DNA of 64,000 nucleotides, from the NCBI RefSeq assembly GCF_051903065.1, contig NZ_CP178438.1. One strand, given 5' to 3'. The notes under the pieces are model-generated. The model did no database searches. It saw only the letters and a program-made list of their open reading frames with translations, and had not been told where the DNA came from. Both the position numbers and the translations under genes were made by a program. Of the stretch, positions 13,369 to 52,555 are shown one piece after another (the stretch's first letter is position 1; each line of letters begins with the position of its first letter). Source of the DNA: Escherichia coli. GTDB lineage: Bacteria > Pseudomonadota > Gammaproteobacteria > Enterobacterales > Enterobacteriaceae.

Positions 13369-13516
13369 CCTGATGCGACGCTGGTGCGTCTTATCAGGCC
13401 TACGTCAGACAGCGCAATAGCCTGATTTAGCGTGATTTTGTAGGTCGGATAAGGCGTTTACGCCGCATCCGACATCAACGCCTGATGCGACGCTTAACGC
13501 GTCTTATCAGGCCTAC
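13369..13516. repeat. REP cluster between convergent gltP and yjcO
   Basis: Three REP-like palindromes (gcctgatgcgacg...cttatcaggcctac and gtaggtcggataaggcg...cgcatccgaca); preceded by hairpin tgccggggttatcccccggca at 13338-13360. Confidence 0.85.
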
Positions 13517-46414: not shown

Positions 46415-48643
46415 ATGTACACACAGACCCTGTATGAGTTAAGTCAGGAGGCTGAACGGCTGTTACAGCTTTCTCGCCAACAGTTGCAGTTACTGGAAAA
46501 AATGCCTCTCTCTGTACCCGGAGACGATGCGCCACAACTGGCTTTACCCTGGAGTCAGCCTAATATCGCCGAGCGTCACGCGATGCTGAATAATGAGTTG
46601 CGTAAAATTTCCCGACTGGAAATGGTGCTGGCGATTGTCGGTACCATGAAAGCAGGGAAATCAACCACCATTAATGCCATTGTTGGTACGGAGGTACTGC
46701 CTAATCGCAATCGCCCAATGACTGCGCTGCCGACGCTTATTCGCCATACGCCCGGGCAAAAAGAACCGGTACTGCATTTTTCACATGTCGCACCAATCGA
46801 TTGTTTAATTCAAAAATTACAACAGCGCCTGCGTGATTGCGATATTAAGCATCTGACCGATGTGCTGGAAATAGATAAAGATATGCGTGCGCTTATGCAG
46901 CGGATCGAAAATGGCGTCGCTTTCGAAAAATATTATCTGGGTGCCCAGCCTATTTTTCATTGTCTGAAAAGTTTGAATGATTTAGTGCGACTGGCGAAGG
47001 CGCTGGACGTCGATTTTCCTTTTTCTGCTTACGCCGCCATTGAGCATATTCCCGTGATTGAAGTGGAGTTTGTCCATCTGGCGGGGCTGGAGAGTTATCC
47101 CGGTCAGTTGACGTTACTGGATACCCCCGGGCCAAATGAAGCCGGGCAACCGCATCTGCAAAAAATGCTTAACCAGCAGCTGGCTCGCGCCTCGGCGGTA
47201 CTGGCGGTGCTGGATTATACGCAACTGAAATCGATCTCCGATGAAGAGGTCCGTGAGGCGATTTTGGCGGTGGGGCAATCGGTGCCGCTGTATGTGCTGG
47301 TCAATAAGTTCGATCAACAGGATCGTAACAGTGACGACGCCGACCAGGTGCGGGCACTGATTTCCGGGACGCTGATGAAAGGCTGTATTACGCCACAGCA
47401 GATATTTCCGGTGTCGTCGATGTGGGGCTACCTGGCAAATCGGGCGCGCCATGAGTTAGCCAACAACGATAAGTTACCAGCGCCAGAGCAACAACGCTGG
47501 GTGGAAGATTTTGCCCATGCCGCGCTCGGCAGGCGCTGGCGTCATGCCGATCTGGCGGACCTCGAACATATTCGTCATGCTGCCGATCAGTTGTGGGAAG
47601 ATTCGCTGTTCGCCCAGCCAATTCAGGCGCTGCTTCATGCCGCTTACGCTAACGCCTCGTTGTATGCTCTGCGATCTGCCGCGCATAAACTGTTGAATTA
47701 TGCGCAGCAGGCGCGGGAATACCTGGATTTTCGTGCGCACGGGTTAAACGTCGCTTGTGAACAATTGCGGCAAAATATCCACCAGATCGAAGAAAGTTTG
47801 CAGCTATTGCAACTCAATCAGGCGCAGGTGAGCGGCGAGATTAAACATGAAATCGAGCTGGCCCTGACCTCCGCCAACCTCTTTCTGCGTCAACAGCAAG
47901 ATGCGCTGAATGCGCAGTTAGCCGCCTTGTTTCAGGATGATTCGGAGCCGTTAAGCGAGATTCGTACCCGCTGTGAGACACTGTTACAGACGGCGCAGAA
48001 CACCATCAGTCGCGACTTTACGCTGCGTTTTGCCGAGCTTGAATCCACCCTTTGCCGGGTGTTAACCGATGTTATTCGCCCCATTGAGCAACAAGTCAAA
48101 ATGGAATTGAGCGAGTCAGGGTTTCGTCCTGGGTTTCATTTTCCTGTTTTTCACGGCGTAGTTCCCCACTTCAACACTCGTCAGCTGTTCAGTGAAGTCA
48201 TTTCGCGCCAGGAAGCAACGGACGAGCAGAGCACGCGTTTAGGCGTTGTGCGTGAGACTTTTTCGCGCTGGTTGAATCAGCCTGACTGGGGACGGGGAAA
48301 TGAGAAATCCCCGACAGAAACGGTTGATTACAGTGTGTTGCAACGAGCATTAAGCGCAGAAGTCGATCTTTATTGCCAACAAATGGCTAAAGTTCTGGCA
48401 GAGCAGGTCGATGAATCTGTTACGGCAGGCATGAATACTTTTTTCGCTGAGTTCGCTTCATGTTTGACGGAATTACAGACGCGTTTACGCGAAAGTCTGG
48501 CTCTGCGTCAACAAAATGAATCGGTGGTCAGGCTGATGCAACAGCAATTGCAGCAGACTGTGATGACTCACGGCTGGATTTACACCGACGCTCAGCTGTT
48601 ACGCGATGATATTCAAACACTTTTCACGGCAGAACGATATTGA
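46415..48643 (+). CDS. crfC: dynamin-like GTPase CrfC (YjdA)
   Basis: 742 aa; P-loop GTMKAGKST near N-terminus; long coiled-coil-rich C-terminal region. Confidence 0.9.
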   Translation: MYTQTLYELSQEAERLLQLSRQQLQLLEKMPLSVPGDDAPQLALPWSQPNIAERHAMLNNELRKISRLEMVLAIVGTMKAGKSTTINAIVGTEVLPNRNRPMTALPTLIRHTPGQKEPVLHFSHVAPIDCLIQKLQQRLRDCDIKHLTDVLEIDKDMRALMQRIENGVAFEKYYLGAQPIFHCLKSLNDLVRLAKALDVDFPFSAYAAIEHIPVIEVEFVHLAGLESYPGQLTLLDTPGPNEAGQPHLQKMLNQQLARASAVLAVLDYTQLKSISDEEVREAILAVGQSVPLYVLVNKFDQQDRNSDDADQVRALISGTLMKGCITPQQIFPVSSMWGYLANRARHELANNDKLPAPEQQRWVEDFAHAALGRRWRHADLADLEHIRHAADQLWEDSLFAQPIQALLHAAYANASLYALRSAAHKLLNYAQQAREYLDFRAHGLNVACEQLRQNIHQIEESLQLLQLNQAQVSGEIKHEIELALTSANLFLRQQQDALNAQLAALFQDDSEPLSEIRTRCETLLQTAQNTISRDFTLRFAELESTLCRVLTDVIRPIEQQVKMELSESGFRPGFHFPVFHGVVPHFNTRQLFSEVISRQEATDEQSTRLGVVRETFSRWLNQPDWGRGNEKSPTETVDYSVLQRALSAEVDLYCQQMAKVLAEQVDESVTAGMNTFFAEFASCLTELQTRLRESLALRQQNESVVRLMQQQLQQTVMTHGWIYTDAQLLRDDIQTLFTAERY

Positions 48644-49518
48644 CCAAGACGTTACTGGACGGCCCCGGTCGCGTGCTGGAGTCGGTTTATCCCCGCTTTT
48701 TAGTGGATCTGGCGCAGGGCGATGATGCCCGCCTTCCACAAGCCCATCAGCAGCAGTTTCGTGAACGACTGATGCAGGAACTTCTTGCGCGCGTGCAGCT
48801 TCAGACATGGACGAACGGCGGGATGTTAAATGCGCCGCTTAGTCTGCGTCTGACATTGGTGGAAAAACTGGCGTCGATGCTGGATCCCGGTCATCTGGCA
48901 CTGACGCAGATCGCGCAGCATCTGGCGCTGCTGCAAAAAATGGATCACCGCCAGCACTCTGCTTTCCCGGAGCTCCCCCAGCAAATTGCCGCCTTGTATG
49001 AGTGGTTTTCAGCCCGTTGTCGCTGGAAGGAAAAGGCGTTAACGCAACGAGGCCTACTGGTGCAGGCGGGTGAACAGAGCGAGCAAATTTTTACCCGCTG
49101 GCGTGCTGGGGCGTATAACGCCTGGTCGTTGCCTGGGCGCTGTTTTATCGTTCTCGAAGAGTTGCGTTGGGGGGCATTTGGCGATGCCTGTCGTCTGGGA
49201 AGCCCGCAAGCGGTGGCGTTGTTGCTGGGTGATTTGCGCGTGAAAGCGACACAACATCTGGCAGAGAGTATCAATGCGGCCCCGACCACGCGTCACTATT
49301 ACCATCAGTGGTTTGCCTCTTCGACCGTTCCGACGGGCGGGGATCATGCTGATTTTTTAAGTTGGCTGGGAAAGTGGACCACGGCAGATAAACAACCCGT
49401 TTGCTGGTCAGTGACCCAACGCTGGCAAACTGTCGCGCTGGGGATGCCACGACTCTGTTCAGCGCAGCGTCTGGCGGGGGCAATGCTCGAGGAAATCTTC
49501 TCTGTAAATTTGGTGTAA
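48640..49518 (+). CDS. yjcZ: YjcZ, CrfC-associated protein of unknown function
   Basis: 292 aa; ATGA overlap with crfC stop. Confidence 0.85.
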   Translation: MTKTLLDGPGRVLESVYPRFLVDLAQGDDARLPQAHQQQFRERLMQELLARVQLQTWTNGGMLNAPLSLRLTLVEKLASMLDPGHLALTQIAQHLALLQKMDHRQHSAFPELPQQIAALYEWFSARCRWKEKALTQRGLLVQAGEQSEQIFTRWRAGAYNAWSLPGRCFIVLEELRWGAFGDACRLGSPQAVALLLGDLRVKATQHLAESINAAPTTRHYYHQWFASSTVPTGGDHADFLSWLGKWTTADKQPVCWSVTQRWQTVALGMPRLCSAQRLAGAMLEEIFSVNLV

Positions 49519-49556
49519 ATAATCAGTTACATCAATGAGTCCTAAACGAAATCCAT

Positions 49557-49572
49557 GTGTGAAGTTGATCAC
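49557..49572. promoter_or_regulatory. CRP binding site in proP promoter region
   Basis: Perfect TGTGA-agttga-TCACA palindrome about 210 bp upstream of proP ATG. Confidence 0.7.
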
Positions 49573-49781
49573 AAATTTAAACGCTGGTAGGGTAAAAAGG
49601 TCATTAACTGCCCAATTCAGGCGTCAACTGGTTTGATTGTACATTCCTTAACCGGAGGGTGTAAGCAAACCCGCTACGCTTGTTACAGAGATTGCATCCT
49701 GCAATTCCCGCTCCCCTTTTGCGGCCGTCGCGCTGATTTTTCTGGCGTTTGCGGAAATGGGCCAACTCTGCGAGGAAAGCT

Positions 49782-51284
49782 ATGCTGAAAAGGAAAAAAG
49801 TAAAACCAATTACCCTTCGTGATGTCACCATTATTGATGACGGTAAACTGCGGAAAGCCATTACCGCAGCATCACTGGGTAATGCAATGGAATGGTTCGA
49901 TTTTGGTGTTTATGGTTTTGTTGCTTACGCATTAGGTAAAGTTTTTTTCCCGGGGGCTGACCCCAGCGTGCAGATGGTTGCTGCACTTGCCACGTTCTCC
50001 GTTCCCTTTCTGATTCGACCGCTTGGCGGACTCTTCTTTGGTATGTTGGGCGATAAATATGGTCGCCAGAAGATCCTCGCTATCACTATTGTGATTATGT
50101 CGATCAGTACGTTCTGTATTGGCTTAATACCGTCCTACGACACGATTGGTATTTGGGCACCGATTCTGCTGTTGATCTGTAAGATGGCACAAGGTTTCTC
50201 GGTCGGCGGTGAATATACCGGGGCGTCGATATTTGTTGCGGAATACTCCCCTGACCGTAAACGTGGCTTTATGGGCAGCTGGCTGGACTTCGGTTCTATT
50301 GCCGGGTTTGTGCTGGGTGCGGGCGTGGTGGTGTTAATTTCGACCATTGTCGGCGAAGCGAACTTCCTCGACTGGGGCTGGCGTATTCCGTTCTTTATTG
50401 CTCTGCCGTTAGGGATTATCGGGCTTTACCTGCGCCATGCGCTGGAAGAAACTCCGGCGTTCCAGCAGCATGTTGATAAACTGGAACAGGGCGACCGCGA
50501 AGGTTTGCAGGATGGCCCGAAAGTCTCGTTTAAAGAGATTGCCACTAAATACTGGCGCAGCCTGTTGACATGTATTGGTCTGGTAATTGCCACCAACGTG
50601 ACTTACTACATGTTGCTGACCTATATGCCGAGTTATTTGTCGCATAACCTGCATTACTCCGAAGACCACGGGGTGCTGATTATTATCGCCATTATGATCG
50701 GTATGCTGTTTGTCCAGCCGGTGATGGGCTTGCTGAGTGACCGTTTTGGCCGTCGTCCGTTTGTGCTACTTGGTAGTGTTGCACTGTTTGTGTTGGCGAT
50801 CCCGGCGTTTATTCTGATTAACAGTAACGTCATCGGCCTGATTTTTGCCGGGTTACTGATGCTGGCGGTGATCCTTAACTGCTTTACGGGCGTTATGGCT
50901 TCTACCTTGCCAGCGATGTTCCCGACGCATATCCGTTACAGCGCGCTGGCGGCGGCATTTAATATTTCGGTGCTGGTTGCCGGTCTGACGCCAACATTGG
51001 CGGCCTGGCTGGTCGAAAGCTCGCAGAATCTGATGATGCCAGCCTATTACCTGATGGTAGTGGCGGTGGTTGGTTTAATCACCGGCGTAACCATGAAAGA
51101 GACGGCAAATCGTCCGTTGAAAGGTGCAACACCGGCGGCGTCAGATATACAGGAAGCGAAGGAAATTCTCGTCGAGCATTACGATAATATCGAGCAGAAA
51201 ATCGATGATATTGACCACGAGATTGCCGATTTGCAGGCGAAACGTACCCGCCTGGTGCAGCAACATCCGCGAATTGATGAATAA
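49782..51284 (+). CDS. proP: osmosensing proline/glycine betaine:proton symporter ProP (MFS)
   Basis: 500 aa from ATG 49782 (MLKRKKVKPITLRDVTIIDD); C-terminal coiled-coil IDDIDHEIADLQAKRTRL; ORF track starts 11 codons upstream. Confidence 0.95.
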   Translation: MLKRKKVKPITLRDVTIIDDGKLRKAITAASLGNAMEWFDFGVYGFVAYALGKVFFPGADPSVQMVAALATFSVPFLIRPLGGLFFGMLGDKYGRQKILAITIVIMSISTFCIGLIPSYDTIGIWAPILLLICKMAQGFSVGGEYTGASIFVAEYSPDRKRGFMGSWLDFGSIAGFVLGAGVVVLISTIVGEANFLDWGWRIPFFIALPLGIIGLYLRHALEETPAFQQHVDKLEQGDREGLQDGPKVSFKEIATKYWRSLLTCIGLVIATNVTYYMLLTYMPSYLSHNLHYSEDHGVLIIIAIMIGMLFVQPVMGLLSDRFGRRPFVLLGSVALFVLAIPAFILINSNVIGLIFAGLLMLAVILNCFTGVMASTLPAMFPTHIRYSALAAAFNISVLVAGLTPTLAAWLVESSQNLMMPAYYLMVVAVVGLITGVTMKETANRPLKGATPAASDIQEAKEILVEHYDNIEQKIDDIDHEIADLQAKRTRLVQQHPRIDE

Positions 51285-51337
51285 GCTGAAACGGATGGCC
51301 TGATGTGACGCTGTCTTATCAGACCAACAATTGAACT

Positions 51338-51354
51338 CTTAAGGTTCACTTAAT
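51338..51354 (+). promoter_or_regulatory. PmrA (BasR) box upstream of pmrR
   Basis: CTTAAG-gttca-CTTAAT direct repeat, 45 bp upstream of pmrR ATG. Confidence 0.65.
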
Positions 51355-51398
51355 CTCTGACGCGCATACTCTCCTCCAGGTTAACGGAGGAGAGTGCA

Positions 51399-51488
51399 AT
51401 GAAAAACCGTGTTTATGAAAGTTTAACTACCGTGTTCAGCGTGCTGGTGGTCAGCAGCTTTCTTTATATCTGGTTTGCCACGTACTGA
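51399..51488 (+). CDS. pmrR: small membrane protein PmrR (29 aa)
   Basis: Hand-translated ATG 51399 to TGA 51488 gives MKNRVYESLTTVFSVLVVSSFLYIWFATY; GGAGG Shine-Dalgarno; PmrA box upstream; below the ORF-track size cut-off. Confidence 0.75.
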   Translation: MKNRVYESLTTVFSVLVVSSFLYIWFATY

Positions 51489-52555
51489 TCTTTCTTCAGC
51501 CGTATCCAGGCGCGCGTGCCAGAAGTCTCTTGCCGGTTTTGCAGGAAAAACTGCCCGTGATGCAACTGTGTAATGCGGCTGACAATACTTAACCCCAGAC
51601 CAATCCCGCCATAACGGCTGTCCATTCGTACAAACGCTTTACTCAACTCCCCGCATTTACTCTCATCAATACCCGGTCCTTCATCTTCAACGGCCATGAC
51701 CGCTCCGTCATCTTCTTGCAGCTTAATCATAATGTTGCTGCCTTGCGGGCTGTAACGATGGGCGTTTTCTACCAGATTTCGCAATAACATCCGCAGCAGG
51801 GTTGCATCACCCTGAACGGTGATGTCGGCGGTGCTCTCTGGCAATAGCAGGGTTTGCTGTCGCTGGTCGAGCATGGTACTGAGTTCGTCATACGAGGGGA
51901 GAATGACATCTTCCAGCAGTTTTACATGTTGATAATTACCGGAAGAAAATGACTGTCCGGCACGCGCCAGTTGCAGCAGCTGGGAGACGCTCTCCATCAT
52001 CTGATCAAGCCGTGCCACTAACGGTGCTACATCAATGTGATGCGTTTTCGCCAGCAGTTCCAGATGCAAACGTACCCCCGCCAGTGGCGTTCGCAGTTCG
52101 TGCGCGACGTCAGCGGTAAACAACCTTTCGTTATCCAGCGTGCTGGTCAGGCGACTGACCAGATCGTTTAACGCCGAAACCACCGCTTCGATTTCGAGGG
52201 TGGCGCTGTGAATGGCAATGGGCGTTAAGTTGTCGGCGGTGCGCGCTTCCAGCTCTTTTTGCAGCTCCGCCAGCGGGCGGGTGATGCGGCGTACCGCCTG
52301 ATAGCAGATAAATAGCGTCAGGCTGACCATAAAGACGCCGGGGACAATCAGGCTGGCGACCGCCTCGCGGATCTCACGCATGATGTGGCGATCGTTGTTG
52401 CGATTGTCGCGTAGCGCCTGCTCAAACAGCTGAATCTGCTCGGTACTTTCATGCCATAGCCAGAAGACGCTGATCAGCTCAAACACCAACAAAATGGCCC
52501 CGATGGTCAATATCAGCCGTTGGCGCAGCGATATTGGTCGGCGCAGAAAACGCAT
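51464..52555 (-). CDS. basS: sensor histidine kinase BasS (PmrB)
   Basis: 363 aa from ATG 52555 (MRFLRRPISLRQRLILTIG); HisKA H-box DVAHELRTP; 3' end overlaps pmrR on the opposite strand. Confidence 0.92.
   Translation of the reverse strand: MRFLRRPISLRQRLILTIGAILLVFELISVFWLWHESTEQIQLFEQALRDNRNNDRHIMREIREAVASLIVPGVFMVSLTLFICYQAVRRITRPLAELQKELEARTADNLTPIAIHSATLEIEAVVSALNDLVSRLTSTLDNERLFTADVAHELRTPLAGVRLHLELLAKTHHIDVAPLVARLDQMMESVSQLLQLARAGQSFSSGNYQHVKLLEDVILPSYDELSTMLDQRQQTLLLPESTADITVQGDATLLRMLLRNLVENAHRYSPQGSNIMIKLQEDDGAVMAVEDEGPGIDESKCGELSKAFVRMDSRYGGIGLGLSIVSRITQLHHGQFFLQNRQETSGTRAWIRLKKDQYVANQI

What the first reader, a model, noticed from the sequence alone, without database searches (positions are those of the whole stretch)
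49557..49572. Consensus-perfect CRP palindrome in the proP control region
TGTGAagttgaTCACA is a perfect match to both CRP half-sites, which is rare for natural sites. It lies about 210 bp upstream of the proP ATG, consistent with CRP control of proP P1.
Basis: partly seen in the sequence, partly recalled or inferred. Interest (0 to 1): 0.25.

Follow-up and report, generated by a model that had tools for sequence, protein, structure and literature searches.

The report
Known CRP operator of proP promoters
This 16-base palindrome is the already characterised binding site for the sugar-sensing regulator CRP in front of the E. coli osmoprotectant transporter gene proP, where it covers one promoter to repress it and helps activate a second; the finding is correct but not new.

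Summary
The motif is real, but it lies at 49558-49573, one base to the right of the coordinates given. It is the only perfect TGTGA-N6-TCACA in the 64-kb window (0.02 expected by chance).

The window is E. coli. The site sits in the rdcB(yjcZ)-proP intergenic region, with its centre 216.5 bp upstream of the proP ATG at 49782. The published proP transcript starts are -182 (P1) and -95 (P2). These place the site at -34.5 of P1, where it fully covers the P1 -35 hexamer TTGATC, and at -121.5 of P2.

Published work states that cAMP-CRP represses the osmotically inducible sigma-70 promoter P1. It also states that CRP co-activates the RpoS-dependent P2 together with Fis. Genomic SELEX with purified cAMP-CRP recovered proP.

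New here is the conservation evidence. The site is exact in about 99% of 5,426 complete E. coli genomes. It is conserved, spacer included, across about 13 named genera of Enterobacteriaceae, while the DNA to its left is not conserved.

"Perfect" applies to the 10-base core only; the full 22-base consensus is matched at 15 of 22 positions. A perfect core is rare: 9 of 182 RegulonDB sites.

Verdict: correct observation, correct interpretation, already known, low interest.

The parts
49558..49573 (.). CRP core operator TGTGA-AGTTGA-TCACA. The full 22-bp site is 49555-49576 and the centre is 49565.5.
   Evidence: Mean conservation is 0.94-0.98 across 27 Enterobacteriaceae proP upstream regions. 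It is exact in about 99% of complete E. coli genomes.
49565..49570 (+). Inferred proP P1 -35 hexamer TTGATC, lying wholly inside the CRP site
   Evidence: It lies 17 bp upstream of TAGGGT, with the P1 start taken at -182 from the ATG (PMC3808355). It is invariant in all 27 aligned sequences. The hexamer assignment is my inference from the sequence.
49588..49593 (+). Inferred proP P1 -10 hexamer TAGGGT
   Evidence: Its position relative to the published P1 start fits a -10 element. Conservation is 0.90. It was not found by the consensus scan because it matches TATAAT at only 3 of 6 positions.
49600..49600 (+). proP P1 transcript start (G). The CRP centre is at -34.5 relative to it.
   Evidence: 49782 minus 182, using the -182 position given in PMC3808355.
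49599..49613 (.). Candidate Fis site II (GGTCATTAACTGCCC, a G-N13-C pattern), centred about -81 of P2 and overlapping the P1 start
   Evidence: Inference from the sequence plus my recollection of the Fis site positions. PMC3808355 states that Fis binding inhibits P1. The region is moderately conserved at 0.71.
49639..49653 (.). Candidate Fis site I (GTACATTCCTTAACC, a G-N13-C pattern), centred at 49646, which is -41 of P2
   Evidence: Inference from the sequence. The adjacent block CAGGCGTCAACnGGTTyGGTTGTAC is conserved. Fis activation of P2 is stated.
49674..49681 (+). Inferred proP P2 extended -10 element, CTACGCTT (RpoS-type, with C upstream of the hexamer)
   Evidence: Its position relative to the published P2 start fits. 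The block AAACCTGCTACGCTTG is conserved across genera (0.82).
49687..49687 (+). proP P2 transcript start (A). The CRP centre is at -121.5 relative to it.
   Evidence: 49782 minus 95, using the -95 position given in PMC3808355.
49782..51284 (+). proP coding sequence (500 aa, glycine betaine/proline transporter)
   Evidence: The product is identical to MG1655 ProP.
48640..49518 (+). rdcB (yjcZ), the upstream gene. The CRP site lies 40 bp past its stop codon and does not travel with it in other genera.
   Evidence: The left flank is not conserved (0.37).

Best explanation
This is the documented cAMP-CRP operator of the E. coli proP control region, and it serves two promoters.

(1) It is centred at -34.5 of the sigma-70, osmotically inducible promoter P1 and contains the P1 -35 hexamer TTGATC. 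Bound CRP therefore excludes RNA polymerase and represses P1. According to the literature, osmotic upshift relieves this repression.

(2) The same bound CRP lies at -121.5 of the RpoS-dependent promoter P2. There, together with Fis bound near -41, it co-activates transcription on entry into stationary phase, each protein contacting one alpha C-terminal domain of RNA polymerase.

What is shown here: the site, its geometry relative to the published transcript starts, its overlap with the -35 hexamer, and its strong conservation. What is taken from the literature: CRP binding, repression of P1 and co-activation of P2. What is inferred: that the spacer AGTTGA is invariant because the same bases must serve both as the CRP spacer and right half-site and as the P1 -35 element.
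For: - Sequence and coordinates.
- Locus identity, rdcB-proP intergenic region of E. coli.
- Transcript starts at -182 and -95 (PMC3808355) give a CRP centre of exactly -34.5 (P1) and -121.5 (P2). These are the values I recall from Xu & Johnson 1997 and McLeod et al. 2000, which I could not read here.
- The literature states that CRP-cAMP represses P1 by binding promoter DNA, and co-activates P2 with Fis through contacts with the two alpha-CTDs (PMC3050693; PMC3808355; PMC5066198).
- proP is a RegulonDB CRP target and was recovered by genomic SELEX-chip with purified cAMP-CRP (PMC3105977).
- Within E. coli, 394 + 4993 = 5387 of 5426 complete genomes carry an exact match of at least 28 nt to one of two 30-mer alleles that start at TGTGA.
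- Across genera, a site with 0-1 mismatch and the same spacer lies 202-332 bp upstream of proP in Escherichia, Citrobacter, Enterobacter, Leclercia, Kosakonia, Pseudescherichia, Shimwellia, Pluralibacter, Kluyvera, Phytobacter, Siccibacter, Superficieibacter and Pseudocitrobacter. About 0.013 such sites are expected by chance per 450 bp (my calculation).
- None of the proP upstream regions outside Enterobacterales has a site with at most 1 mismatch.
- Conservation is 0.94-0.98 over the site and 1.00 over TTGATC, against 0.37 for the left flank and 0.39 for the 5' UTR.
Against: - The primary papers (PMC178980, PMC317180, PMC101903) are not held, so binding and regulation rest on secondary citations and my own recollection.
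- proP is not among the 111 high-confidence CRP ChIP-seq peaks of ETEC H10407 grown in M9-fructose (PMC4287617). That list also omits many classic CRP targets, and I did not confirm that H10407 carries the site.
- The consensus promoter scan found neither P1 nor P2, because both deviate from the sigma-70 consensus. The hexamer assignments are therefore inferences anchored on the published starts.
- The cross-genus alignment was anchored on the best CRP-like site in each locus. This inflates conservation of the core, though not of the spacer or the P1 -10.
Confidence: 0.95

Rival explanations
1. The palindrome is a chance occurrence with no regulatory role.
For: One exact core site per 64 kb is not astronomically unlikely: 2 of 100 shuffles had one. 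About 4 are expected by chance per E. coli-sized genome on uniform composition (my calculation). At one mismatch the window shows no enrichment.
Against: The site is conserved across about 13 named genera while the adjacent DNA is not. It is exact in about 99% of E. coli genomes. CRP regulation and SELEX recovery are documented.
Confidence: 0.01
2. The conserved block is essentially the P1 core promoter (-35 hexamer and surroundings), and its resemblance to a CRP site is incidental. Conservation would then reflect RNA polymerase recognition only.
For: TTGATC is the single most conserved element, invariant in 27 of 27 sequences. The right half-site, which overlaps it, is slightly better conserved (0.98) than the left half (0.94).
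Against: The left half-site TGTGA (-42 to -38 of P1) lies outside the -35 hexamer, yet it is conserved at 0.94 while the bases just upstream fall to about 0.4. It does not resemble an A-rich UP element. The substitutions seen in other genera (CGTGA, TGCGA, TGTTA, TCACC/G/T) are single changes that still leave a recognisable CRP site. Published work reports direct CRP-DNA association and SELEX recovery.
Confidence: 0.02
3. The site acts on P1 as a conventional CRP activator site (class I or class II) rather than as a repressor.
For: Most CRP sites in E. coli are activating.
Against: The centre is at -34.5, derived and the sequence. That is neither the class II position (-41.5) nor a class I position (-61.5 and further upstream). 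The site covers the -35 hexamer. The literature states repression.
Confidence: 0.02

Closest known systems
The proP P1/P2 CRP site of E. coli K-12 (Xu & Johnson 1997; Landis, Xu & Johnson 1999; McLeod, Xu & Johnson 2000; McLeod et al. 2002)
   Same: It is the same locus. The 16-mer and the whole P1-P2 region are identical to MG1655 except for two single-base differences outside the site. The positions of -34.5 and -121.5 are reproduced from the published transcript starts.
   Different: Nothing of substance. The window strain carries G instead of A at 49584 in the P1 spacer, an allele shared with O157:H7-type genomes.
CRP-repressed promoters in which the CRP site overlaps core promoter elements, such as gal P2, cyaA P2 and crp (from my own knowledge)
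   Same: A CRP dimer bound over or next to the -35 region excludes RNA polymerase from that promoter while serving another promoter nearby.
   Different: At proP the activated promoter (P2) lies 87 bp downstream, uses RpoS and needs Fis as a partner. At gal, the two promoters are 5 bp apart and both use sigma-70.
Perfect-core CRP sites of E. coli, such as caiT, maa, ycfQ/bhsA, ygcW/yqcE, galP, yibI, mtlA and fdhD/fdoG in PMC4287617 Table 1
   Same: All have a 10/10 core TGTGA-N6-TCACA, which is a small minority of natural sites (9 of 182 in RegulonDB; PMC1635313).
   Different: Those listed gave high-confidence ChIP-seq peaks in ETEC, and proP did not. The proP spacer AGTTGA is constrained by an embedded -35 hexamer.

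Membership tests
cAMP-CRP binding site (E. coli CRP regulon) | Two-fold symmetric site with core TGTGA-N6-TCACA inside a 22-bp footprint | tested here: met
   The core matches 10/10 at 49558-49573. The 22-bp consensus is matched at 15/22 (my count).
cAMP-CRP binding site (E. coli CRP regulon) | Location in a promoter region at a defined distance from a mapped transcript start | tested here: met
   It lies in the intergenic region, at -34.5 of P1 and -121.5 of P2, using the starts at -182 and -95 from PMC3808355.
cAMP-CRP binding site (E. coli CRP regulon) | cAMP-dependent binding of purified CRP to the DNA | not testable with these tools
   From the literature only. proP was recovered by genomic SELEX-chip (PMC3105977). 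Direct CRP-promoter association is stated in PMC3050693. The primary footprinting paper is not held.
cAMP-CRP binding site (E. coli CRP regulon) | In vivo occupancy by ChIP | tested here: inconclusive
   proP is not among the 111 high-confidence ETEC H10407 CRP ChIP-seq peaks, but that list also omits many classic targets. No other CRP ChIP table that lists or excludes proP could be read.
cAMP-CRP binding site (E. coli CRP regulon) | crp- or cya-dependent change in expression of the target promoter | not testable with these tools
   The literature states repression of P1 and co-activation of P2.
cAMP-CRP binding site (E. coli CRP regulon) | Conservation as a discrete footprint in orthologous promoters | tested here: met
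   0.94-0.98 over the site against 0.37 for the left flank. At least 99% of E. coli genomes carry it.
Class I / class II CRP-activated promoter (with respect to P1) | Site centred at -41.5 (class II), or at -61.5, -71.5 and further upstream (class I) | tested here: not met
   The centre is at -34.5 of P1 and overlaps the -35 hexamer. This geometry is repressive, not activating.

The most novel reading that the evidence does not exclude
The one mildly new angle concerns how strictly the element is kept. Across Enterobacteriaceae, the perfect or near-perfect core and the exact spacer AGTTGA are both maintained, probably because 16 bp are read twice: as a CRP operator and as the P1 -35 hexamer. 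Despite its perfect core, the site is missing from a high-confidence CRP ChIP-seq list. It might therefore be weakly occupied in growing cells, for example through competition with RNA polymerase or Fis, or through salt-sensitive binding. That would make it a natural case where core perfection does not predict occupancy.
Probability: 0.2. Interest if true: 0.3.

Novelty: already known. Interest (0 to 1): 0.08.

Why it matters
It matters little as a discovery. The site, its protein, both promoters and the mechanism were worked out between 1995 and 2002, and the site is listed in RegulonDB. As a check on the scan it is reassuring: a reader with no tools correctly recognised a real, functional operator and its gene. 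The added value here is descriptive. The coordinates are corrected by one base, and the geometry is worked out explicitly. The analysis also shows that the CRP site marks the upstream edge of a conserved P1-Fis-P2 control module shared by about 13 named genera of Enterobacteriaceae, with the embedded -35 hexamer invariant.

Tried and rejected
- Reading the primary papers (PubMed id 9079929, PMC178980, PMC317180, PMC101903, and PMC1308901 for the Grainger ChIP-chip study): none is held.
- Full-text search for the 16-mer string: 0 papers.
- Searching 'proP, CRP, 121.5': swamped by clinical papers, because 'prop' and 'CRP' match other words. A term starting with a minus sign is not accepted.
- Latif et al. 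2018 S1 table: it lists proP, but it is a list of RNA polymerase / sigma-70 ChIP-exo promoters, not CRP peaks. The coordinate given there is the 3' end of proP by my recollection of the older K-12 coordinates, so I did not use it.
- The PredCRP supplement and the Kim et al. 2018 text do not mention proP.
- The consensus promoter scan over 49450-49850 found neither P1 nor P2, only one minus-strand match at 49665-49636 that I regard as chance.
- An FNR half-site reading (TTGAT-N4-ATCAA): the right half, AATTT, matches only 2 of 5, so I rejected it by eye.
- Extending the palindrome beyond 5+5: neither the inner nor the outer positions pair (read).

Full report
**Observation.** The sequence TGTGAAGTTGATCACA is present in the window at 49558-49573. 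Both half-sites match the CRP core exactly. It is the only exact TGTGA-N6-TCACA in the 64 kb, with 0.02 expected from dinucleotide-preserving shuffles and 2 of 100 shuffles containing one. Allowing one mismatch gives 2 sites against 1.6 expected. The statistical surprise is therefore confined to this one site and is modest on its own.

"Consensus-perfect" holds for the 10-base core only. The 22-mer ATGTGTGAAGTTGATCACAAAT matches the 22-bp consensus at 15 of 22 positions (my count; the consensus half-site is quoted in PMC1635313). The palindrome does not extend beyond 5+5 bases.

**Context.** A 501-bp query around the site matches 5413 of 5426 complete E. coli genomes. It is 99.2% identical to K-12 MG1655, and the features under the match are annotated rdcB (yjcZ) and proP (annotation). 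rdcB ends at 49518. proP starts at ATG 49782 and encodes a 500-aa product identical to MG1655 ProP.

**Geometry relative to the promoters.** PMC3808355 gives the two proP transcript starts as -182 (P1, distal) and -95 (P2, proximal) from the start codon. These correspond to window positions 49600 (G) and 49687 (A).

- The CRP centre is then at -34.5 of P1 and -121.5 of P2. These are the values I recall from Xu & Johnson 1997 and McLeod et al. 2000, which are not held and could not be read.
- Working back from 49600, TAGGGT (49588-49593) sits where a -10 hexamer should. Seventeen bases upstream of it is TTGATC (49565-49570), which lies entirely within the CRP site, spanning spacer positions 3-6 and the first two bases of the right half-site.
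- Upstream of 49687 lies CTACGCTT (49674-49681), an RpoS-type extended -10.
- Two G-N13-C 15-mers with AT-rich centres, at 49639-49653 (centre -41 of P2) and 49599-49613 (centre -81 of P2, overlapping the P1 start), fit the Fis sites I recall from the literature.
- These hexamer and Fis assignments are my inferences. The simple consensus scan did not report P1 or P2, because both are far from the sigma-70 consensus.

**What the literature says.** Three open papers summarise the primary work consistently.

- P1 is sigma-70 dependent and responds to osmotic upshift. CRP-cAMP represses it through association with promoter DNA and acts as an osmosensitive repressor.
- P2 is RpoS dependent and is induced on entry to stationary phase. 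[quoted passage not shown]
- Binding of Fis and CRP inhibits P1.
- Sources: PMC3050693, PMC3808355 and PMC5066198.
- proP is listed in RegulonDB as a CRP target. It was among the 92 known targets recovered by genomic SELEX-chip with purified cAMP-CRP (PMC3105977).

The direction is repression, and there is a second documented role at P2.

**Independent evidence from conservation.**

- *Within E. coli.* Two 30-mer alleles that start at the first T of the site differ at 49584 (G in the window and in O157:H7-type genomes, A in K-12). Between them they find exact matches of at least 28 nt in 394 + 4993 = 5387 of 5426 genomes.
- *How other species were sampled.* I scanned one genome per species for a degenerate DNA pattern encoding the ProP N-terminal motif NAMEWFDFGVYGF. 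This gave 120 loci. I then located each proP start and searched the 450 bp upstream of it.
- *Across Enterobacteriaceae.* A site with 0 or 1 core mismatch and the same spacer (AGTTGA, or ATTTGA in some) lies 202-332 bp upstream of proP. This holds in Escherichia (including E. albertii), Citrobacter, Enterobacter, Leclercia, Kosakonia, Pseudescherichia, Shimwellia, Pluralibacter, Kluyvera, Phytobacter, Siccibacter, Superficieibacter and Pseudocitrobacter. Sixteen of these loci have a perfect core. Chance would give about 0.013 sites with at most 1 mismatch per 450 bp (my calculation).
- *Outside Enterobacterales.* None of the roughly 60 proP upstream regions outside Enterobacterales (Pseudomonas, Rhizobium, Achromobacter, Bordetella, Stenotrophomonas, Gilliamella, Snodgrassella and others) has a site with at most 1 mismatch.
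- *Footprint.* In a MAFFT alignment of 27 Enterobacteriaceae upstream regions, mean identity to the window base is 0.94 for TGTGA, 0.96 for the spacer, 0.98 for TCACA and 1.00 for TTGATC. It is 0.90 for TAGGGT and 0.82 for the P2 -10 block. By contrast it is 0.37 for the 57 bp to the left of the site and 0.39 for the 5' UTR.
- *What this implies.* The CRP site is the upstream boundary of a conserved P1-Fis-P2 module. It travels with proP and not with the upstream gene, which differs between genera and even within Escherichia.
- *Caveat.* Each sequence was anchored on its best CRP-like site. Core conservation is therefore partly built in, but conservation of the spacer, P1 -10 and P2 -10 is not.

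**Mechanism.**

- *Shown here:* the site, its overlap with the P1 -35 hexamer, its distance from both starts, and purifying selection on it.
- *From the literature:* CRP binds, represses P1 and co-activates P2 with Fis.
- *Inferred:* repression works by steric exclusion of sigma-70 region 4 from TTGATC. The spacer is invariant because the same bases are read both by CRP, as spacing and right half-site, and by RNA polymerase, as the -35 hexamer.
- *Against a promoter-only reading:* the left half-site lies outside the -35 hexamer and does not look like an UP element, yet it is conserved at 0.94.

**Rarity of a perfect core.** Cameron & Redfield state that none of 182 experimentally determined RegulonDB CRP sites matches the full 22-nt consensus. 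They also state that all but nine have at least one mismatch in the 10-nt core (PMC1635313). In the ETEC H10407 CRP ChIP-seq table I count 8 perfect-core sites among 111 peaks (PMC4287617).

**In vivo occupancy.** I could not find a ChIP table that lists proP. It is absent from the 111 high-confidence ETEC peaks, from cells grown to mid-log in M9-fructose. That is weak negative evidence: the list also lacks lac, ara and gal, and I did not confirm that H10407 carries the site, although about 99% of E. coli genomes do. The proP entry in the Latif et al. 2018 supplementary table refers to RNA polymerase / sigma-70 promoters, not CRP peaks.

**Comparison and verdict.** This is not merely like the known proP CRP site; it is that site, at the same locus, in a strain that differs from K-12 at two bases nearby. 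It meets every defining feature of a CRP operator that can be tested from sequence. It does not fit class I or class II activator geometry at P1, which is consistent with its documented role as a repressor.

- Novelty: already known.
- Interest: low.
- The only slightly open point is whether a perfect-core site that is this conserved is nonetheless weakly occupied in growing cells.

Noticed in passing
window 51330-51495 (+): The Rfam family STnc630 ('enterobacterial sRNA', 181.8 bits) lies immediately after the proP stop codon (51284). It covers the position where K-12 annotates the 29-aa small protein PmrR. The 'sRNA' family is therefore probably the pmrR mRNA or the proP 3' region.
   Followed up: partly
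window 45176-45659 (-); also 2838-2909, 13443-13513, 42550-42630 (+): Five head-to-tail naRNA4/CssrE (REP/BIME-type) elements, spaced about 100 bp apart, lie upstream of crfC. Single copies occur elsewhere in the window.
   Followed up: no
window 15982-16036 (-): A SECIS_2 selenocysteine insertion element is present (87 bits). It is presumably the one inside fdhF, which maps in this region of the E. coli chromosome.
   Followed up: no
window 49720-49741 (+): A weak terminator-like hairpin (5 pairs) followed by a T-run lies in the proP 5' UTR (0.5 expected by chance). The 5' UTR is not conserved outside Escherichia, so this is probably chance.
   Followed up: partly
window 49584: There is a G/A polymorphism in the P1 spacer. 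The window carries G, an allele found in 394 complete E. coli genomes including O157:H7, while K-12 and 4993 other genomes carry A. Any effect on P1 is unknown.
   Followed up: partly
L050, L062 (Serratia), L097 (Rahnella), L041 (Rosenbergiella), L077/L084/L110/L117/L119 (Pantoea): 132-186 bp upstream of proP: Outside Enterobacteriaceae, some Enterobacterales have unrelated CRP-like sites with 1-2 mismatches at other distances upstream of proP. Yersinia, Providencia, Erwinia, Brenneria and Budvicia have none. CRP input to proP may have been gained or repositioned independently.
   Followed up: no
L010, L026, L035, L040, L073, L005, L075, L090: about 368-422 bp upstream of proP: In the Enterobacter, Leclercia and Kosakonia group, a second conserved CRP-like half-palindrome (TTTAGTTATCTnnnTCACATAT, 2 mismatches) lies about 210 bp upstream of the main CRP site. 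It is absent from E. coli.
   Followed up: no
L002 1377-1619 (E. coli 19KM2326N): In this divergent 'E. coli' (87% identity over the region, with the same upstream sequence as E. albertii), rdcB is a truncated pseudogene and crfC is replaced by yjdM/yjdN. The CRP site and the P1/P2 module are nevertheless intact.
   Followed up: partly
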